Assembly (NCBI GenBank): GCA_051313645.2
Contig: JBNRSN020000014.1
Coordinates: 32,426,001 to 32,490,000 of the forward strand
Direction: 5' to 3'
Length of the DNA: 64,000 nucleotides
From: Centroscyllium fabricii
Taxonomy: Eukaryota
The translations under genes were made by a program, and so were the position numbers. This document shows positions 4,310 to 60,822 of this stretch, one piece after another (within the stretch, counting starts at the first letter, position 1; each line of letters starts with the position of its first letter). Under the pieces are notes generated by a model that did not search any database, was not told the DNA's origin, and was given only the letters and a program-made list of their open reading frames with translations.

Positions 4310-5480
4310 AGGACCGCCTGCAGCGGCGGCGACCAACACAGCGCCCAAGGAGAGGGGGGACGGGGTGGGTGGCAGGCTGGCAAGCAATGCATCAAGCACA
4401 TAAAAGACAGGGAAATGCTTGTGCATATATTTATTGGTATAACCAGCAGATGCAAAATACTGTACCGCTGAGTGGTAAATCAAAGAGCAAGTTTAGGTTA
4501 AATGGGTGAGCGGATCCCCCTATTAGCAGGGCGGCGGTGGTAGGTTCCCCGGGGCGCGATCACGTGGTTCTCCCCGCTCCGCCATTTTGTCGGTAGTTTG
4601 TATTTAGGGTCGAGCCGGAACGGAGCTTCTCCCGAGTTTCTGTCACGGGCGGCGGCGGTGATCGGCAGCGGGCGAAAAGAGAAAAGACAAAAGCGGGGGG
4701 GAACAAAAAAGACAAGGAAACGAAAAAGACAAGCCGCCCGCATTGTATTAATTAACGGTAGTTAGTGTTAGTCCCGCGCCTGTAGCTGACAAGATGTCCA
4801 CTCCCGAAGCTCCCGAATACTCGCCCTTCTTCGCGGTGATGGGCGCCTCGGCTGCCATGGTTTTCAGCGGTGAGTCTCGTCTCGCATTTACTGGGGGCGA
4901 GGTGGGCAGTAGGCAGCTGCTGCTGTTCGGCCTGATCGGGGTTAACCCCCCCCCCCCCCGCTGAAGGGGGTTCGGCGGCTTTTTTATATATATTTTTAAT
5001 GTACATATAAAATCTATATATAAAATGGCCGCGAGTGAGCCTGGTTTTTTTTCTCGCATTTATTTATTTATAATCTCTCGTCTATTCACCTCTGCTGGGG
5101 ACGGGCTGCTGCTGATGGTGTTTCCTGCGGCGGACGCTCTGGGCTGCGTAGGTGGACGAGCCTGCTGCGACGGCAGCTCGAGCCGCTTCGGCTCTTTCCG
5201 TGTTCCGACTCGGCGGCGTTCGGCCCGAGGCGTTTTTTTTGCTTCAGTGTCAATGCTGGGAATTTCCGTGGTGCATAGGGGGGGGGAAAGGGTTCGGCAA
5301 TTTCCGGAGCGGGCAGTCCCGAGCCGATCATATGACTGGGGTGCGGGTGCTAGTTCATATCTACGTGTACTGCAATATTTGTTCGCCTTCTAATTCTCAT
5401 TTTGACAATCTGCATTTTCATCGGTTCCTCAGCCCTTTTAAAGGACGACGGCACTGCCACGTCATCGTCGCATATATTTA
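4310..5480. promoter_or_regulatory. ATP6V0C: CpG island / ATP6V0C promoter with E-box TCACGTG (4560-4566) and YY1 motif CCGCCATTTT (4579-4588)
   Basis: Dense CpG around the first coding exon; motifs read directly. TSS not determined. Confidence 0.75.
4794..4869 (+). CDS. ATP6V0C: V-ATPase 16 kDa proteolipid subunit c, coding exon 1
   Basis: ATG at 4794; MSTPEAPEYSPFFAVMGASAAMVFS+G; donor GTGAGT at 4870; 76 nt. Confidence 0.96.
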
Positions 5481-6790: not shown

Positions 6791-7451
6791 TAGCTCTTTC
6801 TGAAATTGGGGTTTGCTTGATGCTGCAGTGGTGTGGTTTCACAGATAGGTGTAAATCTACAGCAGGACCTGAAATTGCCTTGCCCAAATGGTGCATTCAA
6901 TTTGGACTCGTGCAGTGAGCAAGTGACATTGTAATGCTTCCTGGCCTGAGTATTTCCAGCATTTTCTGTTAGCTTTGTTGGTTTGATTCTTGACTTGCTT
7001 AAATCTTCCACTATGTCGCAATAATGTAAATTCCTTAAATGATTAAATAACATTAAGAAACGGGGATGGGTTTACACAGGTCTGTAAAATATTCCCAAGA
7101 ATGTCACATTCGAGTGAGTACTCTATTGGAGGGAAGGAAACTTGTGTGTTTATGGGAAGTTATTTTTTAATTTAAAATAGTAACTTGCTTTGAGCCATCT
7201 AAATGGGGTGAGACTGCTGTTAACTCTGATTTGACCAATAGCTATTTGTATCTGATGTGATCTGTGAACTGCATGTGCATATATGTCATTAACAGGCAAT
7301 CTTTAACCACATTAAAAGCAGTTCAGTTGGCATGCACTAGAATGTTAGTGAGTTACACTTATCCTTTATCTCTGGTTTGTCTAGTGTCTCATCACTGTCT
7401 ACATCAGTGAAATACCTGTAGTCCTCAAATTGCTACTCTATAGGACTACAA

Positions 7452-7565
7452 ATGCAAGAAGTCACACACCAGGTTATAGTCCAACAGTTTTATTTTAAAT
7501 CACAAGCTTTCGGAGCTTCTGCCCCTTCGTCAGGTGAAAGAGAAGCTTCTCCAGCACCTCCACAT
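7452..7565. mobile_element. Small Penelope-type terminal-repeat element with 13-bp TSD
   Basis: TATAGGACTACAA at 7439-7451 and 7566-7578; same family as 22855-23048 and 45701-45836. Confidence 0.75.
7500..7537 (-). ncRNA. Minimal type I hammerhead ribozyme motif
   Basis: Minus strand reads UCAC-CUGACGA-A-GGGGC-AGAA-GCUCC-GAAA-GC-UU-GUGA: intact core, stem I, stem II and palindromic AGCU stem III. Confidence 0.7.
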
Positions 7566-8613
7566 TATAGGACTACAATGCAGTTTAGAAATGTTTTGAC
7601 TGGAAATCCTGTTTTACCTATTGTGTTTGGCTCTGTTAGAATGAGATTCTGCACACTGTTGTAGATTTGGTTTTTAAAGTGCATTTGAAAACTTCAAAGT
7701 ATCCAAAAGGACTGTGGAAATTACCACCTAGAAAATGAAAGTAACTGTGTCTCTATCCATGCTTCACTGAGCCGCTAATCTTCCGAGTGGATGAATGAAC
7801 ACGAACGACCCTGTTTCTCACTAAGCCACAGACTGGAGGATCCCAGGTTGAATTACTGGCCTAGTAAGTTATCTGGCCTCCTTTCTCCTCCCCTCCCCCA
7901 CACATGCACACCCCGCGGGGGAGGGATGTGGAGAAAGGCGGCAGCTAATTCACTGGGCCAATAATGTGGGGGGGGGGGGGGAATAGATACACACTATAGT
8001 GCCAACAATCAATGAATGGGCACTTTTTTTGGTACAAGGTTTTAAAAATAAATCATTCAATTCTACAGCTTATAAAATGTCAGCCTGTGACAAGATCAGA
8101 TCGTGCTCACTCCCTGCTTCTGTCCACCAGTTTCTTCTAGTGGTTGATTTATTAGGAATGTGCACTGTTTTCCTACAGTGATTAGCAGCCATCTTGAAAC
8201 CTGTGTTTAGAGCGAGCATATTGCTTTTTGATCTATTGAACAGGCACATCAGTGTCAACTGCCAGTTTATGGTTCCAGGTAGCTATGTGGAATACATGCA
8301 ACATTTTCCAAATTAAGATCAAAGGTGTGCACACTTAGTCCAGTCTAAAAATAGCTCTTGTGTAGAAAGGAATCTAGTGGCACTGGAACAAAAACAATAT
8401 ATTGCCGATGCTGCTGGCAATCTGAAACAAAACTTGTTGAAGTTGCTCAGCAAGTCAGGTGACATCTGTAGAAGAACAGACTTGATGTTTATACAGACTC
8501 TTCCTCAACTATAGTCATAGAATAATTATAGAATCCCTACAGTGCAGATAGAGGCCATTTCGGCCCATCGAGCCTGCACTGACGCACATCCCACCCTATC
8601 CCCATAACCCCAC

Positions 8614-16533: not shown

Positions 16534-19424
16534 TAGGGTTGCAAAATTATGGGAATTTTTAAGAGGAAACTTTCCATGGGAATTTGAGGGTTTTTTGCAC
16601 TGATGGTTTTTGTCTCTGACCCTTATATTATCTTTGTCATCAAAATAGACATACTGTTCCGTACAAATAAAAACCGGCTTTCAAAACTTTATTTAGGTTA
16701 TAATTTTGAACTTTATTGAACCCCCACAAGACCCATCTAAAATAAGAGTGTCAGCTTACTTAGCCTGTAATTTGTCCTTATGTTGCCCCTTTGAGTCTTC
16801 TACTCATCATTGCTCCTTTTGATTCTCTGGCTCTGACGTGTCCATTTCCTCCTCTGTCGCTGTCTAGCTGTGTGGTGGACACTTCTGTATTTGGCTCTAA
16901 GTTGTAGGTTCGCCCGGATAGCCACCAGTTTCTCCACTCTCGTTAGTCAGCCTGTTGCGCACCTTTGTATGCGTATTCCCAAAAAGTGACCAGTTTCGTT
17001 CAGAGGCCGCTGATGAAGGTGGGATTTGGAGTATCACCGATGCAATAGGTGACAGGGCCTCGGATGCACAAAGTCCCTTCCACCAGGTATTTGCACTGAT
17101 ATGCTTGCATGATTCCCATATCCTGTCCCCATTCCAAAGACCTTGCTTGGTAGAGAACTTTGCCAGACTTCCCAGAACTTTGCCCACATCCAGATTGAGA
17201 TGGTGAGAGGATAGAAATCACACTAAGCGCTGTTGATCTGTTCTCCAGAAAGGATTGGTCTCCCAACATGCTTTGGGTCTAGCATGTATGCTTGACACAA
17301 AATTATTGACGCCTCTATGAATTGAACAGCAGGGATGTGGGTAGGTCAATGCTGATTTGTTCTTTTAAATCAGTAAAAAGCCGGAGAACATCTCCTTCAA
17401 TATGAGCAATTGCAGATGCTACTGGTGAGAGTAGTTTAAGGCTGCTAACCACTCTCTCCCAAAACACATCATCCAGCAGTATTTTCTTGATGGTGGTTTC
17501 CATATCCCCAGTCTGGGATATTGCCATTTCTTGCAGTGACTCCTTACCCTCCAGAAGGCTGTTGTACATTATGACAACACCACCCCATCTAGTGTTGGGC
17601 AGCTTCAGTGTGGTGTTCTTGTTCTTTGTCATTTGCTTGGAGTTGTATGTTGCTGCAACTACCTGTTTTCCCCTGACATACTTAACAACTTGCTTGGCTC
17701 TCTTGTACAGTGCTTCCATGGTTCTCAAACCCATGATGTCCTTGAGCAGGTTAAGCCCATGAGCTGCGCACCCAATAGACGTAATATGAGGGTAGGCCTC
17801 CTCCACTTGAGCCCAAGCAGCCTTCATATTCGCAGCATTCAGTAACTACTGCAAAGACCTTTTGTGATCCAAGATCGTCAGCTCATCAGCAATGTATGTG
17901 CCTGTGTGTCTGTGCTCTTGAAGAACACGGAGAGGAGTGGAGACGATGTAGTTTATGATGCCCTCCCCTCATACATTTGACCACCCATCTGCGATAACTG
18001 CAACACAGTCTGCCATCGCTGTCATTTCTTTGAGCTTTCCTTGGACTCTGTTATACTCAGCCTCCAGCAAATAAGTAGACAAAGCATGTCTGGTGGGAGG
18101 ACAGTATGCAGGGCGAATAACATTGAAAAATCTCTTCCAGTACACATTGGCTGTGAGCATGAGGGGTGAGCCTGTTGCATATACAGCTCGAGCAAGGCAC
18201 TCATCTGCATTCTTCTGGCTATGGTTATCCATTGTGTCAAAGAACCTTCGAAGTGGGCCAGGAGTTGCTGATGATAAGGAGCCTGATGCTTCTTCTTTCG
18301 TTTGCTTCAGTATCCCGTTGTCAGATCACCAGCTCGGTTGAGGAAAGCCATGCTAGCGTTTCGTCGTCTAGAGCAGCTATGCCGGCTTCGCCGTTGGGTG
18401 GTCGATGTTTTAGACATGACTCGATGATGTGATCGACTGTCTGTTCAGGGTGACCACAGTCGCAGACAGCCGAGTCCCTGAGTCCCCATCCTTTCATGGT
18501 CGCGGCGAAACGGCCGACACCAGTCCTGAGGCGGTTGAGCATTGTCCAGCCTGATGCTGAATGAGAACCATCATCTTCTTGAATGGAAGCAGAGGAACTC
18601 TGGGCTGACTGCTGTGAGCTTTGAGTGAAGTTGTTGCATTTGGATAAATGCTGCTGCATCTTTGTGGCATTCTTTACATATGGCTTTGTACACTGTTTGC
18701 ACATGTACACAGTCTTTCCATTTTTAATGCCTGGGGTAAAATGCTTCCACACATCCAACGGTAAACGTGGCATTGTTCTATGCAGAGAAATAAAGGGCAT
18801 TCATCTGTGTCTAACTGCGGTCGATCAGCACGATTGCAACAGGGTGAGTACATTTTTGCTGATGCTCCATGTGATGGAAGCATGACCTGTACACATGACA
18901 CTACATCACCAATAGTGTATTATTTTGTATATTTTAAATTGAAGGACAACAGAGTTCAACAAGTAACTGGTTTATTTGGTATAAAGTCTGATTTACTTAC
19001 TGCATCGTCACCATCAGAAAACAAAATGACTTCCCTCAGGACCCCTAACCTGGATCTTAAAAAAAACTATAGCAGTCTTACAGATGCCTGCAGGCCAATC
19101 CCAATTCGATATGCAAATATTACAAATAGAGGGAGCTAATCGTTCATCCACTCATCCAACCAATCAGGACGCATTTATTCAGTCACACACAACTTGTTGA
19201 TTAAAACAACAAGCCAAGTAAGAAGATAAACATATATTGATTAAGAAATTCCTTAATAGTTAAGATTCCATCTCTGTTAATAATTTTGAGTACACCTGTG
19301 GGGGGGAAAAAAAGAAATACAATAAAAACAATATTATGCTAGCATGTGCTTTTTTGGGCAAAATTCCCAAGCTAAACGTCCCGTGGAAAATTTCCAGAAA
19401 TTTACTGGAAACTTTGCACCCCTA
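16534..19424 (-). mobile_element. hAT DNA transposon with both ends and a decayed transposase (BED finger, DUF659-like core, dimerisation domain)
   Basis: TIRs TAGGGTTGCAAAAT / ACTTTGCACCCCTA; perfect 8-bp TSD TACAGGCA (16526-16533, 19425-19432); motifs VWKHF..C..C..H...C, DGWSN, CAAHGLNL, NTRW, SAASERNWS. Confidence 0.93.
18291..18547 (-). mobile_element. Vingi/Ingi-like LINE 3' fragment inserted in the hAT transposase
   Basis: LNRLRTGVGR...CDCG..EQTVDHII..C (CCHC); GAA-rich tail; 11-bp TSD AGCCTGATGCT (18280-18290, 18548-18558). Confidence 0.8.
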
Positions 19425-19525
19425 TACAGGCAGCTAGCCCCTATACGGTATATCCATAGGGGCCAAGTGAAGAATTCATGCTGCACTGTAGTTTATCTGT
19501 TGCCTTTGGATTCTTTTTGGAAATA

Positions 19526-20560: not shown

Positions 20561-20744
20561 CTCTAGGAGCAGCTTATGGAACTGCTAAGAGTGGAACAGG
20601 AATTGCTGCCATGTCTGTTATGAGGCCTGAGCTAATCATGAAATCCATCATTCCTGTTGTGATGGCTGGTATCATTGCTATCTATGGACTGGTGGTGGCA
20701 GTATTAATTGCCAACTCGCTCACAGAAAAGATAACCCTATTCAA
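20561..20744 (+). CDS. ATP6V0C: V-ATPase proteolipid subunit c, coding exon 2
   Basis: TTTAG acceptor; (A)[60 protein letters not shown]; GTAAGT donor; 184 nt. Confidence 0.97.
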
Positions 20745-21109
20745 GTAAGTCACTTTTTTTTAACTGGGAACTTTTACTTTATGTTGTGGTAGTTGTGTGC
20801 AAGAGGTGGTAAAAAAAATTCTTTCAGTTCATCTATTTAAAATTTTGTCCAAAAGAATTGTCCTCTAAGGAAGTAACTGCTAACATGAGTGATCTATTTG
20901 TGTTAAGTGGCAAGACTATTTGCCAGAGAAAGCTATTTTAGTGCAATCCATTATTGCAAAATAGTTATATTGCAAAATAGTAATATTGCTATCAATGGGA
21001 TGAATAATTTGGGGTGCCCCTAGTCCTTTTCCTGGGAACACTGGCCTGTGTACTACTGAAACTACAGATGGTTGACATATTCATCGAGGACCCTGTTATG
21101 CTCTAGTAA

Positions 21110-22840: not shown

Positions 22841-22854
22841 GTTTAATTATGAAG

Positions 22855-23048
22855 CCATGATGTGGAGGTGTTGGACTGGGGTGGACAAATGTAAGAAGTC
22901 ACAACACCAGGTTATAGTCCAACAGTTTTATTAGAAATCTCAAGCTTTCGGAGTGCTGCTCCTTCCTTCACCTGATGGAGCAGCACTCCGAAAGCTTGTG
23001 ATTTCTAATAAAGCTGTTGGACTATAACCTGGTGTTGTGACTGCTTAC
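22855..23048. mobile_element. Palindromic Penelope-type small element with 14-bp TSD
   Basis: GTTTAATTATGAAG at 22841-22854 and 23049-23062; about 75-bp inverted arms; damaged hammerhead CTGATG-GAGCAGCACTCC-GAAAGCTT. Confidence 0.8.
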
Positions 23049-23166
23049 GTTTAATTATGAAGGGGTGGGAGCAGTAGATAGTTTGCAGTGGTTGAGTTTA
23101 GCCCAAGATGACATGGATATAACATTTCGGAAGAGTAAGACTCTTGATATTCTGAGAAATGCACTA

Positions 23167-31044: not shown

Positions 31045-33980
31045 AAAATACTGCGGATGCTGGAAATCCCAAATAACAGAAAATGCTGGAAAAACTCAGC
31101 AGGCCAGGCCGCATCGGTGGAGAGAAATAATAGTCGACTTTTCGGGTTAGGACCCTTTGTCAAGACTGAAGCCAGGAAATGAAACGGGTCGGAAGGCTGG
31201 GAAGAGGACAAACGGGAAGAGAAAACAAAAGAGAAAAGCCATTAAAAGGTACAGGTTGAGCACCGGTAATCCGGCACCCGATGGTCCGGCAGTTTCAGTG
31301 GTTCGGCACGAATCTAAACCGGCGCTCTTCATTTCCGCCTTCCGCACTTTCATGCTGGCGAGCTCAGAATCGTAAATTCCCTCCGTTTTTATTTCGTTAA
31401 AACATCGATCCCATCCTTCCAAGTGTCTCGTTGTGGTTTTGCTTTTAAAGAACGGGAGGAAAAATCAAAAATAAACTGCGCCAGGATCAGAGAAAATCTG
31501 CATCCCCCAGCAGTTAATTTCAATAAATGTCACTTTCACATCGTGTAGATCCAACAACTTAGGATAACATTGCCGTTTACACAGGCTACATTAACCTAGC
31601 TACATTTGCTTTCAATTCTAAAACTAATGGTGGTATTTGCTGAGGGAACTTATAAACTTAGAAGTGTGAAAAGATGGAATGAAAAATAGGTCTTGTAGTA
31701 GCTCACGGGACAACAGTAAAAGCTGCAGTGGAATTAAGAATAGTCAGTTCTGGAAATTGTAATTCTGTATCTACTGCAGAGGACGTGCCGACAAATTGTA
31801 AGAAGTGCGGTATTTTGAATTTATCCGAATATAATCGGCACACTGTTGAGACAACATACCTTTTGCTTCTCGGGGTTGATTGCATAGCCTGTCAAATGAA
31901 TCTGTTCCAAGGTGCCTGATATTTGAGAGAGCTAATATTTCCATGGTTGGAATATTTGTAAAGTTAACGCATAATCTGAAAGTGGAAGCTAATAAATTAT
32001 TGGGTGCTAATTGGGGCCGGAGTGCGGTTGTCGGTCCAAGCCAGTTCCACCGAACCTTCGGTGATTTGGAATTTTCAGTGGTCCGGCACCGGCCTGGTCC
32101 TGAGGGTGCCGGATTACTGGTGCTCAACCAGTGTTCAAAATGAGACGAGATAGTGATGGGGCTGGAAACAGAATACAGCTATAGATTAGGTGTGAAATGC
32201 ATTGGCAGAATGGGAGGTGGCTGCCATGTGGGGGAGAGAAAAAGAGAAGGGGGGCCAAATAAAAGGTGTGGCTAAAAATAGGTAAAAATATAATGGGGGC
32301 CGAAGTTATGATCTGAAATTGTTGAACGCTATAGGCACTTTACAGCCCTCCGGACTCTAAGCGGAAGAGGTGTTCCTTCAGTTCACGCTGAGCTTCCAAG
32401 GAACAATGTAATAGGCTAAGGACAGAGAGATCAGTGTAGTGAAGCGGAGAATTAAAGTGACAAGCGATCGGAAGCACGGGGTCACCCTTACAGACTGAAC
32501 GGAGGTGTTCCGCAAAGCGGTCACCCAATCTGCATTTGGTCTCCCCAATGTAGAGGGGACTGCATCGTGAGCAGCGTACACAGTATACCAGATTGCGAGA
32601 AGTACAAGTAAATCACGGTTACACCTGGAAGGGGTGTTTGGGGCCCTGGACAGTGGGAAGGTGGGAGGTGTTGCATCTCCTGCGCTTGCACAGGAAGGTG
32701 CCGGGCAAAGGGGAAAATGTGCTGGGGGTGATGGAGTGGACTAGTGTGTCTCGGAGGGAGTGGTCCCTATGGAATGCTGAAAGGGGAGGGGAACATCCAT
32801 TTGGTGGTGGGATCACGTTGGAAATAGCGGAGGATGATCTGTTGAATGGGGAGGCTGGTGGGGTGAAAGGTGAGGACAAGGGGAACCCTATCGTGGTTCC
32901 GGGAGAGAGGGGTGAGGGCAGAAGTGCGGGAGATAGAACGGACCCGGTCGAGGGCAGTGTCAACCACCGTAGAGGGGAATCCTCGGTTGAGGAAAAAGGA
33001 AGACATATTGGAAGCACTGGTGTGAAAGGTGGCATCGTCCGAGCAACTGGGAAAATGGAATAGAGTCTTTACAGGAGGCGGGGTGAGAGGAAGTGTCCAG
33101 ATTTGTGGGAGTCAGTGGGCTTACAGTGAATGTTGGTCAATAACCTATCCCTGGAGACGGAGATGTTGAGGAAGGGAAGAGTCGGGGATGGTGGAAATTG
33201 GAGGCAAAGTGAATGAAGTTGTCGAGTTCCGGGCAAGAGCAGGAAACGGCACTGATACTGTCATCAATGTACCGGAAAAAGAGGTGAGGGAGGGGACCCG
33301 AGTAGGACTGGAACAAAGAGTGTTCCACATATCCCACGAAAAGGCAGGCATAGCTAGGACCTATGCGGGTACCCAGCAACACCTTTAATTTGGAGGAAAT
33401 GAGTGGAGTCAAAGGAGAAGTTGTTCAATGTGAGAACAAGTTCAGACAGCGGAGGGGGGTGGTGGATGGGGACTGGTTGGGCCTCTGTTCAAGGAAGAAG
33501 CAGAGCGCCCTCAGGCCATCCTGGTGGGGGATGGAGGTGTAGAGGGATTGTACGTCCATAGTGAAAAGGAGTCGGTTGGGGTTGGGAAACTGGAAACTTA
33601 AAGTGGCGGAGGGCGTTGAAAGAGTCGCGGATGTAGGTAGGAAACATAGAAGATAGGAGCAGGAGATTCGGCCCTTCGAGCCTGCTCCGCCATTTAATGA
33701 GATCATGGCTGATCATCCAAACCCAGTACCCTATCCCTGCCTTGTCCCCATATCCCACGATCCCTATCGAACCTGCACCGACACATATCCCACCCTATCC
33801 CCGTAACCCCACATATTCAATCCCCCTAACACTAACGGTCAATTTATCCTGGCCAATCAACTTAACCCACACATCTTTGGACTGGACTGAAGAGATTGGA
33901 CAAGGGGAGAAAAGATAGTCGAGATAGGAAGAGAAGTTCCATGGGGCAAGAACAGGCTGAAACGATGGGTCTACTAGGGC
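31045..33980 (-). mobile_element. Penelope-like element (RT, GIY-YIG, terminal repeat); left arm of an inverted pair
   Basis: MDVQSLYTSIPH, GPSYACLFVGYVE..FRYIDD, GDRFAEH; nested MITE 31252-32131 and V-SINE about 33641-33885. Confidence 0.85.
31252..32131 (+). mobile_element. Tigger4-like ~880-bp element with both TIRs
   Basis: CAGGTTGAGCACCGGTAATCCGG / CCGGATTACTGGTGCTCAACCAG; the empty site is visible in the sister arm (about 37455-37480). Confidence 0.8.
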
Positions 33981-34714
33981 TGTATCGGTGCTGTTTCCTG
34001 CTCTTGCCCTGAACTCGAGAACTTCATTCACTTTGCTTCCAATTTCCACCCTTCCCTCACCTTCACATGGTCTATCTCCAACTCTTCCCTTCCTTGACAT
34101 CTCCATCTCTGGGGATAGGTTATTGACCAACATTCACTACTGACTCCCACAGCTATCTGGACTGCACTTCCTCCCACCCCGCCTCCTGTAAGGATTCTAT
34201 TCCATTCTCCCAGTTTCTCCATCTCCGCCGCATCTGCTCTGACGATGCCACCTTCCACACCAGTGCTTCCAATATGTCTTCCTTTTCCTCAACCGATGAT
34301 TCCCCTCTACCATGGTTGACACGGCCCTCGACTACTGGGTCCGTTCTATCTCCCGCACTTCTGCCCTCACCCCTGCCACTCCCTCCCAGAACCATGATAG
34401 GGTTCCTCTTGTCCTCACCTTTCACCCCACCAGCCTCCACATTTAACGGATCATCCTCCGCCACCTCCGATGTGATCCCACCACCAAACTCATCTTCCCC
34501 TCCCCCTTCAGCATTCTGTAGGGACCGCTCCCTCTGAGATACACCAGTCCACTCCTCCATCACCCCCAGCACCCCTTCGCCTGGCACCTTCCTGTGCAAG
34601 CGCAGGAGATGCAACATCTGCCCTTACACCTCCCCCCCCCTTCCCACTGTCCAGGGCCCCAAACACCCCTGCCAGGTCAAACAGCGATTTACTTGTACTT
34701 CTTGCGATCTAGTA

Positions 34715-35097
34715 CAGGTTGAACACCGTTAATCCGTTACCCGAAAAACCGGCAGCTTCAGACGTCCGGCAATGATTTCCCCAACTGCCCCGCACATGTG
34801 CAAAATGGCCGCCATGCGTGGCTGCACATGCTCGGGCCTCCCTGACTGGTCTGCGCATGCGCAACATGGCCACCGCGCTTGCCTGCGCATGCCCAGGCCT
34901 CCCCGAACGATTGATGCTTCAGCGAGATCTGCTCATGCGCCGCCGAACGGCGAGTGCATGCGCAGACCATTCAAAACTCTGCAGTGGCCATTTTGAATGA
35001 TCTGCGCATGTGCCGCCAAAGCTTCAAGCATTTGGCGTTTTCAACAATTCGGCAGGGTGCTGGTCCCGACACTGCTGGATTAACGGTGTTCAACCTG
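34715..35097. mobile_element. Complete Tigger4-like MITE (383 bp) with TA duplication, inserted in the GIY-YIG region
   Basis: TA-CAGGTTGAACACCGTTAATCC ... GGATTAACGGTGTTCAACCTG-TA. Confidence 0.85.
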
Positions 35098-35304
35098 TAT
35101 ATTGTATTCTCTGCTCATGATGCGGTCTCCTCTACATTGGGGAGACAAAACGCAGATTGGGTGACTGCTTTGCGGAACATCTCCGTACAGTCCGTAAGGG
35201 TGACTCTCAGCTTCCGGTCTCCTTTCACTTTAATTCTCCTCTTCACTACCACTTTGATCTCTCTGTCCTTGGCTGATTACATTATTCCTCGGAAGCTCAG
35301 CGTA

Positions 35305-36108
35305 AAACATAGAAACATAGAAGATTGTAGCAGGAGTAGGCCATTCGGCCCTTCGAGCCTGCTCCGCCATTCAATTAGATCATGACTGATCTTTCAGATT
35401 CAGTACCCTGTCCCTGCCTTCTCCCCATATCCCTTCAGCCTGAAGAAATATGTCCAACTCCTTCTTAAATATATTCAATGAACCGGCCTCCACCGCCCTC
35501 TGGCAGAGAATTCCACAGGTTCACCACTCTCGGTGAAGAAATTCCCCCTCATCTCCGTCCTAAATGGCTTTCCCCTTATCTTTAGACTGTGGCCCCTGGT
35601 TCTGGACTCCCTGACCATCGGGAACATCATTCCTGCCTCTTGTCTGTCCAGGCCTGATAGAATTTTATAGGTTTCGATGAGATCTCTCAATCGTCTGAAC
35701 TCCAGTGAGTATAAGCCCAATCGACTCAATCCCTTCCCCATACGTCATTCCTGCCATCCCAGGTATCAGCCTGGTGAATCTTCGCTGCATTCCGTCAATG
35801 GCAAGAACGTCCTTCCTCAGATGAGGCAACCAAAACTGCACACAATACTCGAGGTGTGGTCTCACCAAGGTCCTGTAGAGCTGCAGCAAGACATCCTTGT
35901 TCTTATATTCGAACCCTCTTGCTACGAAGGCCAACATACCATTTGCCTTCTTAACCACCTGTTGCACCTGCATGCTTACCTTCAGTGACTGGTGCACAAG
36001 AACACACCGGTTTCTTTGCACTTCCCCAGCTCCCAATCTATTGCCATTCAAATAATAATCTGCCCTCCTGTTTTTGCCACCAAAGTGGATAACCTCACAT
36101 TTATACAT
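35305..36108 (-). mobile_element. CR1 3' fragment
   Basis: CEVIHFGGKN...VRPHLEYCVQFW; CR1 tail. Confidence 0.9.
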
Positions 36109-37290: not shown

Positions 37291-38299
37291 AATATGGGGA
37301 GAGGGTAGGAGGGGGGGTGCTGGGTTTGGATGATCAGCCATGATCTCGTCAAAATGGCAGAGCAGGCTCGAAGGGCTGAATGGCCGACTCCTGCTCCTAT
37401 CTTCTGTGTTTCTGTATAGCTGTATTCTGTCCCCAGCCCCATCACCATCTCGTCTCATTTTGAAAACCTCTTAATGGCTTTTCTCTCTTGTTTTCTCCTC
37501 CCTTTTGTTCTCTCCCAGCTTCCCCCGGCCTTCTCACCTGTTTCATTTCCTGGCTTCAGTCTTGACAAAGGGTCCTAACCTGAAACGTCGACTCTATATT
37601 TCTCTTCACCGATGCTGCCTGGCCTGCTGAGTTTTTCCAGCATTTTCTGTTGTTATTTTGGATTCAGAGACTGTTGGTTTTTTGTGACTCACCACCTTTC
37701 GCCTGCAAAACCTGGATGAGTGCAGCTCCTCAACATAGGGTAAAACTCATCTCCCGATGTGTCCCATCTTTCAATGCAAGCCTCTATGTGGAGCCCTGCT
37801 CCTTTTTCTGGGGCAATGTACGTTTCAGACTGTCTATTGTTGCAACGGTTTTAGCAAAGCATAAGGATTTAATTGAACCAGTTTAATTAGCAGTTGCACA
37901 TACCAACTGCACAGGAACCCAATCACAAAGGAATATCTTGTGCCACTTAGCCCACTTTTTTACTTAATTATCTGCAGACTAATTAATTATGGTATAAACA
38001 GACTATGGTATGAAGGCCGATGGGATCTGGCTTGTGCCTGATTGGTTACAGGATTAGGCCAATCTGCCTGTATGGTATACATCCCTTGCATTTCTCTCGA
38101 GGCATTACATGCAAGCATGCTTATTAGCTAGCCACCAGAATGTGCTATGTTGTACTGGAATGTATTAAGAATAATTTAGTTTTTTGTTTTCTGCAAGATT
38201 CAATTTTGGCATCTTCAAATTCTTGGAAATCCTTAACCAATACACCATCTAGGGAAAAATACTAGTAACATAGTGGGGGGGAAATATTGTACTAATTTT

Positions 38300-44972: not shown

Positions 44973-45700
44973 TTGGAGATGCCGTTTTTCAGATGAGGTG
45001 TCCCATCAGCCCTCTTAGGTGGACGTAAATGATCCCATGGCACTACTTCGAAGTAGAGCAGGAGAGCTCTCCCCGGTGTCCTGGATAATATTTATCCCTC
45101 AACCAACACCTAATACATACAGATGATCTGGTCATTATCACATTGCAGTGTGCGCAAATTGGCTGTCGCTTGTCCTACATTACAGCATTGATTATGGGCG
45201 GCACGGAGGCACAGTGGTTAGCACTGTTGCCTCACAGCACTGGAGACCCGGGTTCAAATCCAGCCTCGGGTACTATCTGTGTGGAGTTTGCACATTCTCC
45301 CCGTGTCTGCGTGGGTTTCCTCCGGGTGCTCCAGTTTCCTCCCACAATCCAAAGATGTGCGGGTTAGGTTGATTGGCCATGATAAATTGACCCTTAGTGT
45401 TAGAGGGATTAAATTGACCCTTAGTGTTAGGGGGATTGAATATGTGGGGTTACGGGGATAGGGTGGGATATGTGTCGGTGCAGGCTCGATAGGGATCGAG
45501 GGATATGGGGAGAGGGCAGGGACAGGATGCTGGGTTTGGATGATCAGCCATGATCTCATTGAATGGCGGAGCAGGCTCCAAGGGCCGAATGGCCTGCTCC
45601 TGCTCCTAGTTTCTATGTCTATGTCTATAAAAGTACTTCATTGGCTGTGAAGTGCTTTGGGACATCAAGAAGTTGTGAAAGGTGCTATATAAATGCAAAT
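44973..45700 (+). mobile_element. Deu-domain SINE (SacSINE1/AmnSINE1-like), split by a V-SINE
   Basis: GGTGGACGTAAA.GATCCCATGGCACTA...AATATTTATCCCTCAACC...; L2-like tail at 45630-45700. Confidence 0.8.
45196..45627 (+). mobile_element. Full-length V-SINE (HE1-like) with a 27-bp internal duplication
   Basis: A box GGCACAGTGG, B box GGTTCAAATCC, V-domain, CR1 tail; duplication at 45384-45437. Confidence 0.9.
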
Positions 45701-45836
45701 GCAAGAAGTCACACAACACCAGGTTATAGTCTAACAGTTTTATTTGAAATCACTTGCTTGTTTGTTGGACTATAACCTGGTGTTGTGTGACTTCTCGCAT
45801 TTGTCCACCCCAGTCCAACACCGGCACCTCCACATC
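45701..45836. mobile_element. Palindromic Penelope-type small element with 14-bp TSD
   Basis: ATATAAATGCAAAT at 45687-45700 and 45837-45850; inverted arms ACACAACACCAGGTTATAGTC / GACTATAACCTGGTGTTGTGT. Confidence 0.78.
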
Positions 45837-45996
45837 ATATAAATGCAAATCTGTCTTTCTTTCACAAAACCCCCAAACCCAGTCATCAGGATGTGCAGCT
45901 CTGGAATCTGATGCCCTTCAGTACAGCCTGCTGACTATCAGTAGCACCATTACTGACACCGGGGGTCTGGGTAATTGTACTTGGACACTCACTCAC

Positions 45997-46069
45997 CTGG
46001 TCGAGCAACAGTTGAGCCAGCTCCGGATTCCTGTCTCGTAATTCATTCAGCTTCTTAATCAGGGTGTGA
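45997..46069 (-). CDS. TRAP1: TRAP1 penultimate coding exon (73 nt)
   Basis: HTLIKKLNELRDRNPELAQLLLDQ; AG/GT borders; phase matches the previous exon. Confidence 0.93.
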
Positions 46070-46189
46070 CTGAAACAGTACAAGATACAGGTAAATAAAG
46101 GAATGAGGTCTCGACAATTCCTAAATGACCATGATCTGTAATTTATGCAATTTGGTGCTTTCTTCACTGTGCTAGAGATACAGAGAGCG

Positions 46190-48840
46190 AACAAGGGCGA
46201 GAGGGAGGGAGAGAGGGAGGGAGGAGGAGAGATGGGGNNNNNNNNNNNNNNNNNNNNNNNNNNNNNNNNNNNNNNNNNNNNNNNNNNNNNNNNNNNNNNN
46301 NNNNNNNNNNNNNNNNNNNNNNNNNNNNNNNNNNNNNNNNNNNNNNNNNNNNNNNNNNNNNNNNNNNNNNNNNNNNNNNNNNNNNNNNNNNNNNNNNNNN
46401 NNNNNNNNNNNNNNNNNNNNNNNNNNNNNNNNNNNNNNNNNNNNNNNNNNNNNNNNNNNNNNNNNNNNNNNNNNNNNNNNNNNNNNNNNNNNNNNNNNNN
46501 NNNNNNNNNNNNNNNNNNNNNNNNNNNNNNNNNNNNNNNNNNNNNNNNNNNNNNNNNNNNNNNNNNNNNNNNNNNNNNNNNNNNNNNNNNNNNNNNNNNN
46601 NNNNNNNNNNNNNNNNNNNNNNNNNNNNNNNNNNNNNNNNNNNNNNNNNNNNNNNNNNNNNNNNNNNNNNNNNNNNNGGAAATGGAGTGGGGAAGGGAAG
46701 GAGGGGGGAGAGAGGGAGCAGAGAGAGAGAGGGAGGGAGGAGAGAGAGGAGAGGGGAGAGAGAGAGGAGAGGGGAGAGAGAGAGGAGAGGGGAGAGAGAG
46801 AGGAGAGGGGAGAGAGAGAGGAGAGGGGAGAGAGAGAGGAGAGGGGAGAGAGAGAGGAGAGGGGAGAGAGAGAGGAGAGAGAGATGGGGAGAGGGGAGGA
46901 AGGGGAGGAAGGGGAGCGGGGAGGAAGGGGAGAGGGGAGGAAGGGGAGAGGGGAGGAAGGGGAGAGAGAGAGGAGAGGGGAGGAAGGGGAGAGAGGGGCG
47001 GAAGGGGAGAGGGGAGGAAGAGGAGAGGGGAGGAAGGGGAGAGAGAGAGGAAGGGGAGAGGGGAGGAAGGGGANNNNNNNNNNNNNNNNNNNNNNNNNNN
47101 NNNNNNNNNNNNNNNNNNNNNNNNNNNNNNNNNNNNNNNNNNNNNNNNNNNNNNNNNNNNNNNNNNNNNNNNNNNNNNNNNNNNNNNNNNNNNNNNNNNN
47201 NNNNNNNNNNNNNNNNNNNNNNNNNNNNNNNNNNNNNNNNNNNNNNNNNNNNNNNNNNNNNNNNNNNNNNNNNNNNNNNNNNNNNNNNNNNNNNNNNNNN
47301 NNNNNNNNNNNNNNNNNNNNNNNNNNNNNNNNNNNNNNNNNNNNNNNNNNNNNNNNNNNNNNNNNNNNNNNNNNNNNNNNNNNNNNNNNNNNNNNNNNNN
47401 NNNNNNNNNNNNNNNNNNNNNNNNNNNNNNNNNNNNNNGGAGGNNNNNNNNNNNNNNNNNNNNNNNNNNNNNNNNNNNNNNNNNNNNNNNNNNNNNNNNN
47501 NNNNNNNNNNNNNNNNNNNNNNNNNNNNNNNNNNNNNNNNNNNNNNNNNNNNNNNNNNNNNNNNNNNNNNNNNNNNNNNNNNNNNNNNNNNNNNNNNNNN
47601 NNNNNNNNNNNNNNNNNNNNNNNNNNNNNNNNNNNNNNNNNNNNNNNNNNNNNNNNNNNNNNNNNNNNNNNNNNNNNNNNNNNNNNNNNNNNNNNNNNNN
47701 NNNNNNNNNNNNNNNNNNNNNNNNNNNNNNNNNNNNNNNNNNNNNNNNNNNNNNNNNNNNNNNNNNNNNNNNNNNNNNNNNNNNNNNNNNNNNNNNNNNN
47801 NNNNNNNNNNNNNNNAGGGAGGAAGGGGAGAGGGAGGAGGNNNNNNNNNNNNNNNNNNNNNNNNNNNNNNNNNNNNNNNNNNNNNNNNNNNNNNNNNNNN
47901 NNNNNNNNNNNNNNNNNNNNNNNNNNNNNNNNNNNNNNNNNNNNNNNNNNNNNNNNNNNNNNNNNNNNNNNNNNNNNNNNNNNNNNNNNNNNNNNNNNNN
48001 NNNNNNNNNNNNNNNNNNNNNNNNNNNNNNNNNNNNNNNNNNNNNNNNNNNNNNNNNNNNNNNNNNNNNNNNNNNNNNNNNNNNNNNNNNNNNNNNNNNN
48101 NNNNNNNNNNNNNNNNNNNNNNNNNNNNNNNNNNNNNNNNNNNNNNNNNNNNNNNNNNNNNNNNNNNNNNNNNNNNNNNNNNNNNNNNNNNNNNNNNNNN
48201 NNNNNNNNNNNNNNNNNNNNNNNNNNNNNNNNNNNNNNNNNNNNNNNNNNNNNNNNNNNNNNNNNNNNNNNNNNNNNNNNNNNNNNNNNNNNNNNNNNNN
48301 NNNNNNNNNNNNNNNNNNNNNNNNNNNNNNNNNNNNNNNNNNNNNNNNNNNNNNNNNNNNNNNNNNNNNNNNNNNNNNNNNNNNNNNNNNNNNNNNNNNN
48401 NNNNNNNNNNNNNNNNNNNNNNNNNNNNNNNNNNNNNNNNNNNNNNNNNNNNNNNNNNNNNNNNNNNNNNNNNNNNNNNNNNNNNNNNNNNNNNNNNNNN
48501 NNNNNNNNNNNNNNNNNNNNNNNNNNNNNNNNNNNNNGAAGGGGAGGGAGGAAGGGGAGGGAGGAAGGGGAGGGAGGAAGGGGAGGGAGGATGGGGAGAG
48601 GGGAAGGGGAGAGGGGAAGGGGAGAGGGGAAGGGGAGAGGGGAAGGGGAGAGGGGAGGGAGGAAGNNNNNNNNNNNNNNNNNNNNNNNNNNNNNNNNNNN
48701 NNNNNNNNNNNNNNNNNNNNNNNNNNNNNNNNNNNNNNNNNNNNNNNNNNNNNNNNNNNNNNNNNNNNNNNNNNNNNNNNNNNNNNNNNNNNNNNNNNNN
48801 NNNNNNNNNNNNNNNNNNNGCGGGAGGAGAGAGAGGGAGA
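46190..48840. repeat. GA-rich polypurine tandem repeat, mostly N
   Basis: 18-bp GGAGAGGGGAGAGAGAGA units at about 46740-46880 and GGAAGGGGAGAG variants between N runs. Confidence 0.9.
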
Positions 48841-49116
48841 AACACAGAAGACAGGAGCAGGAGTAGGCCATTTGGCCCTTCGAGCCTGCTCCGCCATTTT
48901 GATGAGATCATGGCCTGATCAGTGGATGTGGTATACATGGATTTCAGTATTGTAGCAGCACGTGCAGCCGGGTCGCACTCGCTCAGCAACCAAGCTGAAA
49001 GCATGACTGAGGGAGTAGGAGGGCCCTGTCCCCCACAATCGCTCTCAGGACAATCTCGTGAAGACCTTCTCTACCCCGCGATGCGTCCGCACCGCGTGAC
49101 CCAGCCTGCAACTTAC

Positions 49117-49262
49117 CTGGCATTGATTTCCAGAGTCGGCTGCAGGATCTGCGCCCGCTCCTCGCTGGACTTGGCGAGCTGCTGCGTGCGCAGGAAGTGC
49201 CGAGCCGCACCCATCTCCAGCACGGTGACCATGGCGGGGTGAGTGTCCAACCGCGGAGTCAG
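49117..49262 (-). CDS. TRAP1: TRAP1 coding exon (146 nt)
   Basis: [48 protein letters not shown]; CAG acceptor, GTAAGT donor. Confidence 0.96.
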
Positions 49263-49624
49263 CTGATGCAACACAGGGGGAAAAACAAATCTGAATTTGT
49301 TTGGGGTCACAATCTAACACGAAATCTAACACGAGACAAGGAACCGAGGCCTCATCTGAATGTTCATACTCTCATCGCACTAATTGAAGAGCTGGGGAGT
49401 TCTCCACGGAATCCCGACCAACATTCCTCCTTCAAACAGCATCACCAAAACAGATGATCTGGTCACTTATCCCATTAGAAATGCATAACAATCTAAAACA
49501 GCTAAGCTTTAATACAGGATATCAGCCCAATTGTTTTGCATTATTCCCAGTGCTATTTTTCTGTGGGATCTTGCTGGCTGATGTTCACAGGGAGCTTCTC
49601 CAGTGTGGTTATGCATAGGTATCA

Positions 49625-49868
49625 GCCTTGGCTTAGTGAGTAGTACTCTCACCTCAGAAGGTTGTTGATTCAAAACAAACTCCAGAGACCGGAGCACAAA
49701 ATCTAGGCCAACACTCCCAGTGCAGTGCTGAGGGAGTGCTGCACTGTTAGAGGTGCTGTCTTTCGGATGAGGCGTTAAACCGAGGCCCGCGTCTGCCCCC
49801 AGGTGGATGTAAAAGATCCCATGGGACCATTTCAAAGGTGTCCTGGCCAATATTTATCCCTGAACCAC
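49625..49868 (+). mobile_element. Deu-domain SINE 5' part
   Basis: tRNA-like head then GTGCTGAGGGAGTGCTGCACTGTTAGAGGTGCTGTCTTTCGGATGAG...GATCCCATGG. Confidence 0.8.
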
Positions 49869-49926
49869 GACAGAAAATACTGGAGAAACTCAGCAGGCCA
49901 GGCAGCATCCGTGGAGAGAGAAACAG

Positions 49927-49963
49927 AGTTAACGTTTCAGGTCTGTGGCCCTTCGTCAGAACT
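49927..49963 (-). ncRNA. Minimal type I hammerhead ribozyme motif in a Penelope terminal repeat (about 49870-50050)
   Basis: Minus strand AGUU-CUGACGA-AGG-GCCACAGA-CCU-GAAA-CG-UU-AACU; palindromic ACGU stem III. Confidence 0.6.
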
Positions 49964-50429
49964 GGAAAAAGTTGGAGATGTAACAGATTTTAAGCAGGTG
50001 CAGAGGCAGGGAAAGGGGGGAGGGGAGGAACGGAGGTGAGAGGGGAGAGATGGGGGAGTCCGCTTCTGATCACTATCCAGCAACCCCTGCTGACGTGCAG
50101 AAGTTGGATGAGGACAGGAGTGGGTTGGCTGGAACATGCCTCCATGGTTAAATAGCTCATCGACACTCGCCATCCAGGCTCAGATGAAGAATAGGCACTC
50201 GGTCGCGGTATCGGAAGGTGCTGCTGCTCAACAACGATGGCGTTAATACTTATACTGGTTCCTATTGCATATTTTAAGAGTTCAGACCTGGTCCCGGTGC
50301 TCACTGCCAAACTAGAGCTGTAAATCAAAGCTTGCTATTGCTGCAGGAAAAGTCTGCATCGTTAAACCCTCTCACAGGGCTTCCTTTCTGTTCTATCACA
50401 GTCACATTACAGTCGGAAGGGATACAGAT

Positions 50430-51400
50430 AGACAGCTGGAAACATTTGACACTAATCCACCAAGGTGTACAGAGAACAGAAGCTGTGAAGACATCAAAAG
50501 GATGGTTTGACTTGGTTCTGTTGCATTTGGAAGGTTAAGCAGGATGTGGAAGAACACAGATTTCAGTAAATGGGACACAGAGTTTATGAAGCGACCCATA
50601 TTATTACACAGATCGGAGTGTTGGAACAGGAGAAAAGTTGATGAGCAAAAGAAACAAACAGCAGAGATGAGTTGGTCGAGAGAAATACTGAGAGCGGCCA
50701 GGATGCCAAAAACATGGCTTGGACAAGAAACGACACTTCTACAGAAGATTCACAAACAACTGCAATGGTTTGAACATAGAAACAGGAGGAGGCCATTGTG
50801 CCCCTCGAGCCAGTTCCGCCATTCAATGAGATCGTGGCTGATCTGTTTCCTTACTTCATCCGGCCGCCTTGGCTCCATATCCCTTAACACCTTTGTCTAG
50901 CAAGAATTTTACCAATTTCAAATTTTAAATGATTAATTGAGCTAGCTCTACTGCGTCTTGTGGGAGAGTTCCACAGTTCCACCATCCTTTGCGTGAAAAA
51001 GTGTTTCCCAACTTCTCTCCTGAATGGCCTGGCTCTGGTTTGAAGGTTATGTCCCCTTGTCCTAGACTCCCTCACCAGCGGAATCAGTTTCTCTCTATCT
51101 ACCCTGTCAATTCCTTTCAAAATCCTAAAAACCTCCATCAAATCCCCCCATAACCTTCTATATTCCAGGGAATAGAGTTTATGTAATCTCTTTGGGGCAC
51201 GTTTGAAGAATGGAAACGATACGAATACCTTCCGTGCACACAGAGAGGCTGAGGAAGACCAGGGAAATGTTGGATGGACAATGTCAAGAGTGACCTGACA
51301 CAGAAAGGGATTCAGAGGATTGCGGCGACTTCAGACCAGACAACAGTGGAGTGAATCCACTTGGCCCCTTGTCGCTGCTGAGCTGACAGACGGGGATTGA
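50430..51400 (+). mobile_element. Degenerate RTE-like LINE 3' part, split by an antisense CR1 end (about 50773-51190)
   Basis: AFGRLSRMWK..ILLHRSECW..AEMSW..QWF; resumes as RPGKCWMDNVKSDL. Confidence 0.6.
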
Positions 51401-51418
51401 GTCATAGTTTTATTATAC

Positions 51419-51504
51419 CTTAATATTCGCCACTCGCTCTCCAAGTGCATTCTTCATCCACGCCACGAGCCCCTCAGCCTCCGACTCAGAGAGACGCTCA
51501 GTCG
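51419..51504 (-). CDS. TRAP1: TRAP1 coding exon (86 nt)
   Basis: (A)[28 protein letters not shown]; CAG/GT borders; phase 1 to 0. Confidence 0.93.
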
Positions 51505-51905
51505 CTGTGAAAGGAGAAGCAATCAGTGGAATCAGTCGCAGTGACAGTTACTGAGATACAATAATTAAAGAAATGTTCAAAGTTTCTGTACTTTTCTCCC
51601 TGGGTTGTTTTTTTTTTTTTTAAGTCACACCCATTCTCTTCATGTACCATTCACAACTGAGGCAGAGTCTGCCTACTCCTGGGGGTGGGGTGAGAGAAAG
51701 AGACACACACACATAGGCAAACAGAGTGAGTGTGAGTGACACACAGGCATACACAGAGCGAGAGAGAGACACACCAATAAAATGAGAGATTTGGTGATCC
51801 CTCCCCCAGGACAGTAATCACTGGTTGGCCTTCAGACAAGTGCCTAGTGCAGGTGTGAGCCAGTCTGAAGCTTCCAGGTCCGACCCCTCCTACAGGGCAC
51901 CGTAC

Positions 51906-52044
51906 CTGGCCTGCTGTCCTCGTACTTTTCCTCCTTGTAATGATCCACCACAATGTCAGTCTCCACAGAAATCAGCTTCTTCTTGTCAAACTCCCGCAGG
52001 TGTAGCAGAGTCAGCTCATCAAACTGGTCGTAGCAAAAGAGAAC
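51906..52044 (-). CDS. TRAP1: TRAP1 coding exon (139 nt)
   Basis: [46 protein letters not shown]; TAG/GT borders. Confidence 0.96.
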
Positions 52045-52597
52045 CTACCGGAAGCATACAGGGAGACCGGAGGGTTAGTTTAAAACCTGCCCGCGCAGAG
52101 CACAGGGTGAGATGGAAGTGGTGAGAGTCGGAAGACCAAATGAAGCTGGCTCCTCTGCCTGGCACTCTGTGAGGCAGTGAGCCACATAGGCTGGGGAAAT
52201 CCCACGGCCAATCCCTGGATTATGGGTGACGGGGGAAGAGAGGGCATGATTGGCCTAAACGCCTCAGGGCAAGGAAAATCGGGCAGGATCCACACTTCTG
52301 ACTGTTGTGTAGAAACCCTCACTTGCTGCATAGCTAAGAGAGGTCGCTGGGTGAGGACAGGGTACGAGGCGAGGCAGTAACAATGCGTCACTCTGCTGGA
52401 GGTGAGCACGGGTGTTCTGGTTGATTTATAACGTGGCCCATCAGTGCAGCTTAACAGTGCCGATGGAAAACTCATTTAATAAATCGATGGCAAGCAAGGA
52501 AATGTAACACAGATTCCCACCTTCGGACAGAGCAGGGGAGAACGGTAAAGTACCAGCTAGCAAACTGCTCGCTGGAAGCCCCCTCCCTCCTCCTCAC

Positions 52598-52783
52598 CTC
52601 CATTTCCTTTTTCTTCATGGCTTCGAAGTACGGTGAGTGTTGTGCTAGGTGGCGGTTCGGCGCACACAGGTAATAAATATTTCGGCTCCCCGCTTTCATG
52701 CGGCTGCCATACTCGGCTAGACTGGTCACCTGACCCGCCGGCAGTGCAGACGATTCGAACCTCAACAGTTTTCCGATATTCTC
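52598..52783 (-). CDS. TRAP1: TRAP1 coding exon (186 nt)
   Basis: [62 protein letters not shown]; TAG/GT borders. Confidence 0.96.
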
Positions 52784-60815: not shown

Positions 60816-60822
60816 TCATAAG

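What the first reader, a model, noticed from the sequence alone, without database searches (positions are those of the whole stretch)
7439..7578. 114-bp TSD-flanked retroelement carrying an intact minimal hammerhead ribozyme
Seen: 13-bp direct repeats around a tiny element whose minus strand has every hammerhead core nucleotide, stem I UCAC/GUGA, a 5-bp stem II and a palindromic AGCU in place of stem III. Known: Penelope-like elements carry such minimal type I hammerheads, thought to cleave as dimers. Inference: with two further TSD-flanked relatives here (22855, 45701) and no coding sequence, this is an abundant non-autonomous ribozyme-bearing (retrozyme-like) family in sharks.
Basis: partly seen in the sequence, partly recalled or inferred. 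Interest (0 to 1): 0.75.

Follow-up and report, generated by a model that had tools for sequence, protein, structure and literature searches.

The report
Penelope retroelement stump with hammerhead ribozyme
A 114-base insertion in an intron of a shark-like genome carries a complete minimal hammerhead-ribozyme motif; it is most likely a stub of a Penelope-like retrotransposon's end, an already described kind of genomic debris rather than a new class of element.

Summary
A 13-bp duplication flanks 114 bp whose minus strand has every minimal type I hammerhead nucleotide. A related species has the empty site with one copy of the 13-mer, so this is a true insertion, and the family is very abundant. 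But the three copies in the window are not copies of one unit. They are 114, 194 and 136 bp long, and only 1 of 3 keeps an intact core. All 3 are built head-to-head, with a 36-38-nt 'tail' (14-15 nt of it here) at one end only: the published signature of Penelope-like element (PLE) insertions. A second hammerhead family in this window sits behind a PLE RT/GIY-YIG relic. Best reading: a truncated, inverted PLE end whose ribozyme is likely a passenger; it is monomeric and antisense to the host gene ATP6V0C. It fails the retrozyme definition (tandem units) at this locus. No coding partner was found, and a few contigs hint at head-to-tail units, so a short non-autonomous family is not excluded. 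This scan noted the same pattern before in other shark genomes. Cleavage is untested.

The parts
7439..7451 (.). left target-site duplication, 13 bp
   Evidence: exact repeat; single copy at the empty site in organism C
7452..7545 (-). tail-less sense arm (3' part of a putative PLE pseudo-LTR); its 3' end abuts the left TSD, whose adjoining 4 nt equal the family's next 4 nt
   Evidence: 84-90% identical to arms of the 22855 and 45701 copies
7500..7537 (-). minimal type I hammerhead motif; predicted cut between 7504 and 7503
   Evidence: numbering and pairs; descriptor scan with shuffled control
7540..7551 (.). perfect 12-bp palindrome at the inversion junction
   Evidence: 17 perfect palindromes of 12 bp or more in the window, about 0.03 expected per 114 bp
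7551..7565 (+). inverted piece: last 14-15 nt of the 'tail', abutting the right TSD
   Evidence: 14/15 identical to 45821-45835 (E 0.79 alone, so it rests on sitting at the TSD edge as in both relatives)
7566..7578 (.). right target-site duplication, 13 bp
22841..23062 (.). relative: 14-bp TSDs, 194-bp head-to-head insert; tail-bearing arm on minus starts inside the core, tail-less arm on plus lacks 3 nt of the core/stem II join; no intact ribozyme; in intron 2 of ATP6V0C
45687..45850 (.). relative: 14-bp TSDs, 136-bp head-to-head insert; tail-bearing arm on plus, tail-less arm on minus; both stop short of the ribozyme core
4794..4869 (+). host gene ATP6V0C (V-ATPase 16 kDa proteolipid), coding exon 1; exon 2 about 20561-20745, exon 3 from about 29086; the element lies in intron 1 with its ribozyme antisense
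   Evidence: exon limits read from GT/AG in the sequence

Best explanation
The 114-bp insert is a true insertion with a 13-bp target duplication and is most likely a 5'-truncated, 5'-inverted end (pseudo-LTR) of a Penelope-like retrotransposon, whose minimal hammerhead would be an inactive passenger at this site. Inferred mechanism: a PLE GIY-YIG endonuclease nicks AT-rich DNA on both strands 13-14 nt apart. Each free 3' end primes reverse transcription on uncleaved element RNA, one at the pseudo-LTR end and one about 36-38 nt further on at the tail end. The two short cDNAs are joined head-to-head by fold-back or microhomology, so arm lengths differ at every insertion. Here the first cDNA ran about 94 nt, just past the ribozyme, and the second about 15 nt. 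In the parent RNA the motif would cleave only as a dimer or with protein help; this copy is a monomer, antisense to ATP6V0C pre-mRNA, and predicted to fold mostly otherwise. Shown: TSD, empty site, motif, layout, abundance, orientation. Inferred: the enzyme, two-site priming, the full-length parent, inactivity.
For: Empty orthologous site. 3 of 3 window copies have 13-14-bp AT-rich TSDs (69-86% AT against 53%), 3' ends pointing outward, a tail-less end fixed within 2 nt, a tail at one end only, and unequal arms (114/194/136 bp). The tail is 36-38 nt and 74% A+C and is predicted to close a stem-loop (z -2.08 in one copy, -1.01 in the other). These match the inverted copy and 30-40-bp tail in PMC8557442, TSDs and junction palindromes in PMC3846280, and two RT start sites in an AC-rich stem-loop, nicking of both strands and use of uncleaved RNA in PMC11167929. 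The motif has the PLE min-HHR traits of PMC4209133, where most motifs are single and attributed to truncated PLEs. Same-window analogue: a second family's hammerhead lies 3' of an RT/GIY-YIG relic. Only 1 of 3 copies keeps the core, so an intact DNA copy of the ribozyme is not needed for insertion. Stem I pairing probability drops from 0.8-0.9 (core alone) to about 0.1 in the whole insert.
Against: No ORF-bearing partner was found for this family (DNA scans 18, 26, 55-57, 62, all in collections that hold little shark DNA). The two arms that reach past the core start close together, 3 and 8 nt upstream of stem I, and loose ends there agree poorly beyond about 10 nt (0.43-0.52 in X3 and X9); that fits a short defined RNA as well as truncation. 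One X5 loose-end group (11 contigs, median 11 nt, agreement 0.71) and X3 back-joints read into another unit head-to-tail. The forced hammerhead fold costs only 0.8-3.2 kcal/mol over the minimum, so misfolding is a weak prediction. Only three insertions were read whole.
Confidence: 0.65

Rival explanations
1. A short non-autonomous family: a defined RNA of about 93-130 nt that starts just upstream of the ribozyme is transcribed from solo or tandem copies and mobilised in trans by a PLE protein. Head-to-tail dimers would let two minimal hammerheads cleave as a dimer. The insertion chemistry is the same as in the best explanation; only the template differs.
For: 11,832, 3,000, 1,931 and 1,147 contigs laid in the four runs. 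5' ends near stem I in 2 of 2 arms that pass the core; poor agreement of loose ends further upstream; head-to-tail hints in X5 and X3. No coding partner found. Non-autonomous PLE derivatives are documented (PMC8557442; bioRxiv 10.64898/2026.07.22.740005).
Against: 0 of 3 window copies are tandem; 2 of 3 lack an intact core; lengths differ. Loose-end consensus counts contigs, not depth, so a shared upstream sequence can be hidden. One X9 group (15 contigs, median 46 nt, agreement 0.57) does continue upstream. Partial tandems are also normal for autonomous PLEs. Retrozyme HHRs are canonical, whereas minimal ones are assigned to PLEs.
Confidence: 0.27
2. A fold-back DNA element (MITE-like) whose terminal inverted repeats are the two arms, the hammerhead being incidental.
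For: Inverted arms and TSDs in the 22855 and 45701 copies.
Against: The two ends are not mirror images (tail at one end only), the centre differs in each copy, the 7439 copy has no terminal inverted repeat, and the TSD is 13-14 bp.
Confidence: 0.04
3. A co-opted intronic ribozyme acting on ATP6V0C transcripts.
For: Intact core inside intron 1 of a housekeeping gene.
Against: Antisense to the host pre-mRNA; absent from the orthologous site of a species about 97% identical in the flanks; monomeric minimal HHRs showed no cleavage in PMC4209133.
Confidence: 0.02

Closest known systems
Minimal type I hammerheads in PLE pseudo-LTRs (Cervera & De la Pena 2014, PMC4209133)
   Same: Full core, unpaired base between 9 and 10.1, G10.1-C11.1, palindromic 15.2-16.2, 4-bp helix I, no helix III, dispersed single copies by the thousand.
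   Different: Helix II is 5 bp (7-8 bp in their S. mansoni families). No shark example in the parts read or in 2 searched supplementary files (file 1 not searchable). The parent PLE is not identified here.
EN+ PLE insertions with inverted pLTR and 'tail' (PMC3846280, PMC8557442; mechanism in PMC11167929)
   Same: Head-to-head arms, 30-40-nt tail at one end, TSD, palindrome at the inversion junction, AT-rich target, AC-rich tail.
   Different: Extremely short (114-194 bp, no ORF remnant); TSD 13-14 bp against 8-10 bp in the rotifer examples; the tail-side arm here is only about 15 nt. Clade (Poseidon or Neptune) not determined.
Metazoan non-LTR retrozymes (PMC7229834; bioRxiv 10.64898/2026.07.22.740005)
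   Same: Non-coding, type I HHR, PLE-related, long TSD, low GC; monomer derivatives are known, and one chondrichthyan was found to carry retrozymes (mean 363 bp).
   Different: Not tandem at any of 3 loci, minimal rather than canonical HHR, unit shorter than 150-450 bp, inverted-plus-tail build, no circular RNA shown.

Membership tests
PLE minimal type I hammerhead | Conserved core CUGANGA / GAAA / UH | tested here: met
PLE minimal type I hammerhead | Unpaired nucleotide between 9 and 10.1; G10.1-C11.1; palindromic 15.2-16.2; helix I 4-5 bp | tested here: met
   against PMC4209133
PLE minimal type I hammerhead | Compensatory changes across copies of the family | tested here: inconclusive
   Only one intact copy was readable whole; its G-U in stem II is A-U in the 22855 arms and in loose ends; N7 varies (C, U, G), but C/U can be CpG decay. 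Two-sided changes were seen only in the second family (2 pairs, 3 sequences, 50 of 500 shuffles as high).
PLE minimal type I hammerhead | Self-cleavage as dimer or with PLE protein | not testable with these tools
   Cofolding two cores gave -25.8 against 2 x -12.0 kcal/mol and did not pair the core palindromes; no assay
EN+ Penelope-like element insertion | Target-site duplication with empty site | tested here: met
EN+ Penelope-like element insertion | Inverted 5'-truncated copy adjacent at the 5' end | tested here: met
   3 of 3 copies; in the 7439 copy it is only about 15 nt plus a palindrome
EN+ Penelope-like element insertion | 30-40-bp tail at one end only | tested here: met
   36 nt (22855) and 38 nt (45701); last 14-15 nt at 7551-7565
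EN+ Penelope-like element insertion | Same end attached to an RT plus GIY-YIG ORF somewhere in the genome | tested here: inconclusive
   Not in the window; no genome held; peptide and DNA searches blank but weak
Non-LTR retrozyme | At least two consecutive tandem units, each with a complete HHR | tested here: not met
   0 of 3 loci; weak head-to-tail hints elsewhere in the family
Non-LTR retrozyme | Canonical type I HHR (6-bp helix I, helix III, loop 1-loop 2 contact) in 150-450-bp units (PMC7229834) | tested here: not met
   4-bp helix I, no helix III, about 94-nt arm; note the 2026 preprint also admits minimal HHRs and units from 51 bp
Non-LTR retrozyme | Accumulating circular RNA | not testable with these tools
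   only contigs were available; no listed holder on record as RNA
tRNA/5S-derived SINE | Pol III head derived from tRNA or 5S rRNA | tested here: not met
   no such Rfam match at 7440-7600 up to E 10

The most novel reading that the evidence does not exclude
Sharks carry a very high-copy family whose template RNA begins a few bases upstream of a minimal hammerhead. Either an autonomous PLE's internal priming at its 5' pseudo-LTR runs off the RNA's 5' end and mass-produces SINE-like ribozyme stubs, or a unit of about 93 nt has become a self-standing element whose head-to-tail dimers supply the partner that a minimal hammerhead needs. Either would give a genome-scale record of two-strand, two-site PLE priming and of the step from PLE end to retrozyme.
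Probability: 0.27. Interest if true: 0.5.

Novelty: new member of a known kind. Interest (0 to 1): 0.22.

Why it matters
As one more PLE end with a minimal hammerhead it matters little: such motifs occur by the thousand in fish, amphibian and reptile genomes. Its use is as material. A young insertion with an empty site in a related species, in a family this abundant, lets TSD length, the two priming sites, junction palindromes and 5'-end positions be counted genome-wide. That tests the still unsettled PLE integration model and whether the ribozyme is under selection.

Tried and rejected
Rfam, whole window (E up to 5) and 7440-7600 (E up to 10): no hammerhead family; hits were hairpin-type chance matches. 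No own genome. Exact DNA scans: metagenome 0 and 0, GTDB genomes 0 and 0, viral contigs 1 and 0; the one hit, L001, has no similarity beyond the pattern and was rejected as chance. Tail reading frame as a PLE N-terminal extension: no candidate; one hit among 1.84 billion representatives, P0002, is a repeat-containing hypothetical protein from JGI and was rejected; no significant match to the 19 PLE-type proteins. Pfam, Atlas, PDB and one homology search on frameshifted PLE relic pieces gave nothing until. Expression: no RNA holder listed. In run X16 (RNA is a guess) depth falls 5' of 7520, but loose ends show sequence divergence there and no record has 31 letters on both sides of the cut site, so it says nothing on cleavage. 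Summed contig depth (8.0 million against 4.2 in X3) is not a copy number. A MAFFT alignment of both hammerhead families was out of register in stem I and was not used for pair counts. Earlier-findings look-ups by sequence and place were empty.

Full report
1. Observation. The window has an exact 13-bp repeat at 7439-7451 and 7566-7578 around 114 bp. Outside tandem arrays the window has only six 13-bp repeats at 60-260 bp spacing, and three of them flank this family. The minus strand carries a complete minimal type I hammerhead: stem I of 4 bp, C3-A9, an unpaired A, stem II of 5 bp (one G-U), G12-A14, a 4-nt palindrome in place of stem III, and U17, with the cut predicted at 7504/7503. My descriptor found 2 such motifs in the window; 0 of 100 resampled sequences had one with all features. 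Rfam does not see it, and the core's folding energy is unremarkable (z -1.15).

2. It is a real insertion. In run X9 (organism C) one 1693-nt contig aligns to 7282-7438 and 7566-7730 with 9 substitutions and 2 indels and skips 127 bp, that is 114 plus 13, with 12 letters fitting on either side. This is the empty site. Run X3 holds both junctions of the filled site without differences, and X5 the left one; X3 may be the window's source and is not independent. The family is abundant: 11,832, 3,000, 1,931 and 1,147 contigs were laid in the 4 runs, against one or two per run on the flanks. Summed depth is not a copy number. Three insertions in 61.8 kb of unmasked sequence (about 49 per Mb, one window only) suggests tens of thousands of copies or more; this is a rough inference.

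3. Anatomy of the three copies. Each has a 13-14-bp TSD that is 69-86% AT against 53% for the window. Each is head-to-head, with 3' ends at the TSDs. One end always stops within 2 nt of the same position; the other carries a further 36-38 nt, the tail, which is 74% A+C. Arm lengths and centres differ: 114, 194 and 136 bp. In the 7439 copy the tail-less arm is about 94 nt and includes the ribozyme. The other arm is only the last 14-15 nt of the tail, joined through a perfect 12-bp palindrome (7540-7551; about 0.03 expected per 114 bp). That short match is not significant alone (E 0.79); it counts because it sits at the TSD edge as in both relatives. At the tail-less end the TSD shares 4 nt (7439) and 5 nt (45701) with the family's continuation, and 3 nt with a terminal mismatch at 22855. 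Only 1 of 3 copies has an intact core: the 22855 arms either start inside it or lack 3 nt, and 45701 stops short of it.

4. Surroundings. The element lies in intron 1 of ATP6V0C (exon 1 at 4794-4869, exon 2 about 20561-20745, exon 3 from about 29086, plus strand). The ribozyme is antisense to that pre-mRNA. In the whole insert, stem I pairing probability is about 0.1, because the inverted piece and palindrome form a competing hairpin; the forced hammerhead fold is only 0.8-3.2 kcal/mol above the minimum, so this is a weak prediction. The window also holds a second, unrelated hammerhead family (49959-, about 37562+, about 31163-). One copy lies 3' of a frameshifted RT/GIY-YIG relic (33643-32325, minus), separated by a 3' UTR that an 880-bp element interrupts; the 37415-37660 copy bridges the gap. 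Among these 3 sequences, 2 pairs change on both sides, one being C3-G8 to U3-A8 as reported for S. mansoni; with so few sequences this is not significant (50 of 500 shuffles). This family shares nothing significant with ours, so it is an analogue, not the parent. The best named hit of the relic is a Heterodontus francisci protein, the basis for 'shark'.

5. Mechanism. The layout matches published PLE insertions: an inverted 5'-truncated copy and a 30-40-bp tail at one end (PMC8557442, passages), and TSDs, empty sites and palindromes at the inverted junction (PMC3846280, passages and Discussion). PMC11167929 (parts 1-2 of 4) showed in vitro that a Poseidon protein nicks AT-rich DNA on both strands and starts reverse transcription at two sites in an AC-rich stem-loop, the tail being the stretch between them. 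It also showed that hammerhead cleavage needs the protein and is not required for insertion. I infer that both nicks primed cDNA, one at each site, on uncleaved RNA, and that the two cDNAs were joined. PMC3846280 instead explains junction palindromes by self-priming on an antisense template; my data do not separate these. The tail-bearing arm at 22855 ends in an ATG, which could be the parent's ORF start, but peptide searches found nothing.

6. Against this reading. I found no coding parent: there is no genome, and exact scans of collections that hold little shark DNA were blank. Both arms that pass the core begin 3-8 nt upstream of stem I, and loose ends there agree poorly after about 10 nt (0.43-0.52 in X3 and X9), although 15 X9 contigs continue for a median of 46 nt (agreement 0.57). 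An X5 loose-end group (11 contigs, median 11 nt, so the far part rests on few contigs) reads into the start of another unit, and X3 shows back-joints. These are head-to-tail hints that fit either PLE partial tandems or a retrozyme-like array. One search left 221 loose-end rows and 18,168 pieces unshown. I give the short non-autonomous family 0.27.

7. Comparison with what is known. It works like a PLE pseudo-LTR end and meets every sequence-level trait of the PLE minimal hammerhead (PMC4209133, parts 1-2 of 4). That paper reports thousands of dispersed single motifs in coelacanth and Xenopus, and no cleavage for a monomer. Membership of a specific PLE family is unproven. It is not a retrozyme at this locus: those are tandem units (bioRxiv 10.64898/2026.07.22.740005, parts 1-3 of 5; PMC7229834, passages). 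That preprint already argues that retrozymes derive from PLE ends and finds them in one chondrichthyan; its supplements were not seen and may list this family. Six literature searches showed no paper describing this shark family; PMC6155905 and PMC8969392 (passages) added only general statements; 2 supplementary files of PMC4209133 had no shark terms and file 1 could not be searched. Repbase and Dfam could not be checked. Two earlier notes of this scan reach the same reading in other shark genomes; they are unchecked, and I used them only as a lead to PMC3846280.

8. Verdict. Observation confirmed, interpretation partly supported. New member of a known kind, interest 0.22. The open point worth a follow-up is whether the family's 5' ends pile up just upstream of the ribozyme.

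Noticed in passing
window 49925-49963 (-), 37558-37593 (+), 31132-31167 (-): Second minimal-hammerhead family with different stems and palindrome; two copies carry U3-A8 instead of C3-G8 and a two-sided change in stem I.
   Followed up: partly
window 31065-35350: Frameshifted Penelope-like RT/GIY-YIG relic in head-to-head arrangement (33643-32325 minus; 33957-34720 and 35016-35350 plus); its 3' UTR leads to the second hammerhead family.
   Followed up: partly
window 31251-32132: About 880-bp element with terminal inverted repeats interrupting the PLE 3' UTR; related ends at 19524, 21766, 25775, 28521, 30260 and 34712 suggest a MITE-like DNA transposon family.
   Followed up: no
window 7489-7494 (-) and the matching place in the 22855 and 45701 arms: An AATAAA hexamer a few bases 3' of the ribozyme is present in all 4 arms that cover it; possibly the parent's polyadenylation signal.
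   Followed up: no
window 45750-45765: The inversion centre of the 45701 copy falls at about the ribozyme's own palindrome and predicted cut site; some X3 back-joints (7507, 7511) and loose ends (7504) also fall there.
   Followed up: partly
window 4794-29290 (+) and about 46000-53000 (-): Host genes: ATP6V0C on plus; TRAP1 exon at 52475-52783 on minus.
   Followed up: partly
window 16900-18800 (-): Degraded DNA-transposon-like ORFs with weak DUF659 and zinc-finger matches, below Pfam cut-offs.
   Followed up: no
window 58646-63850: Two LINE-like RT copies forming a long inverted pair, 84-92% complementary over about 1.8 kb.
   Followed up: no
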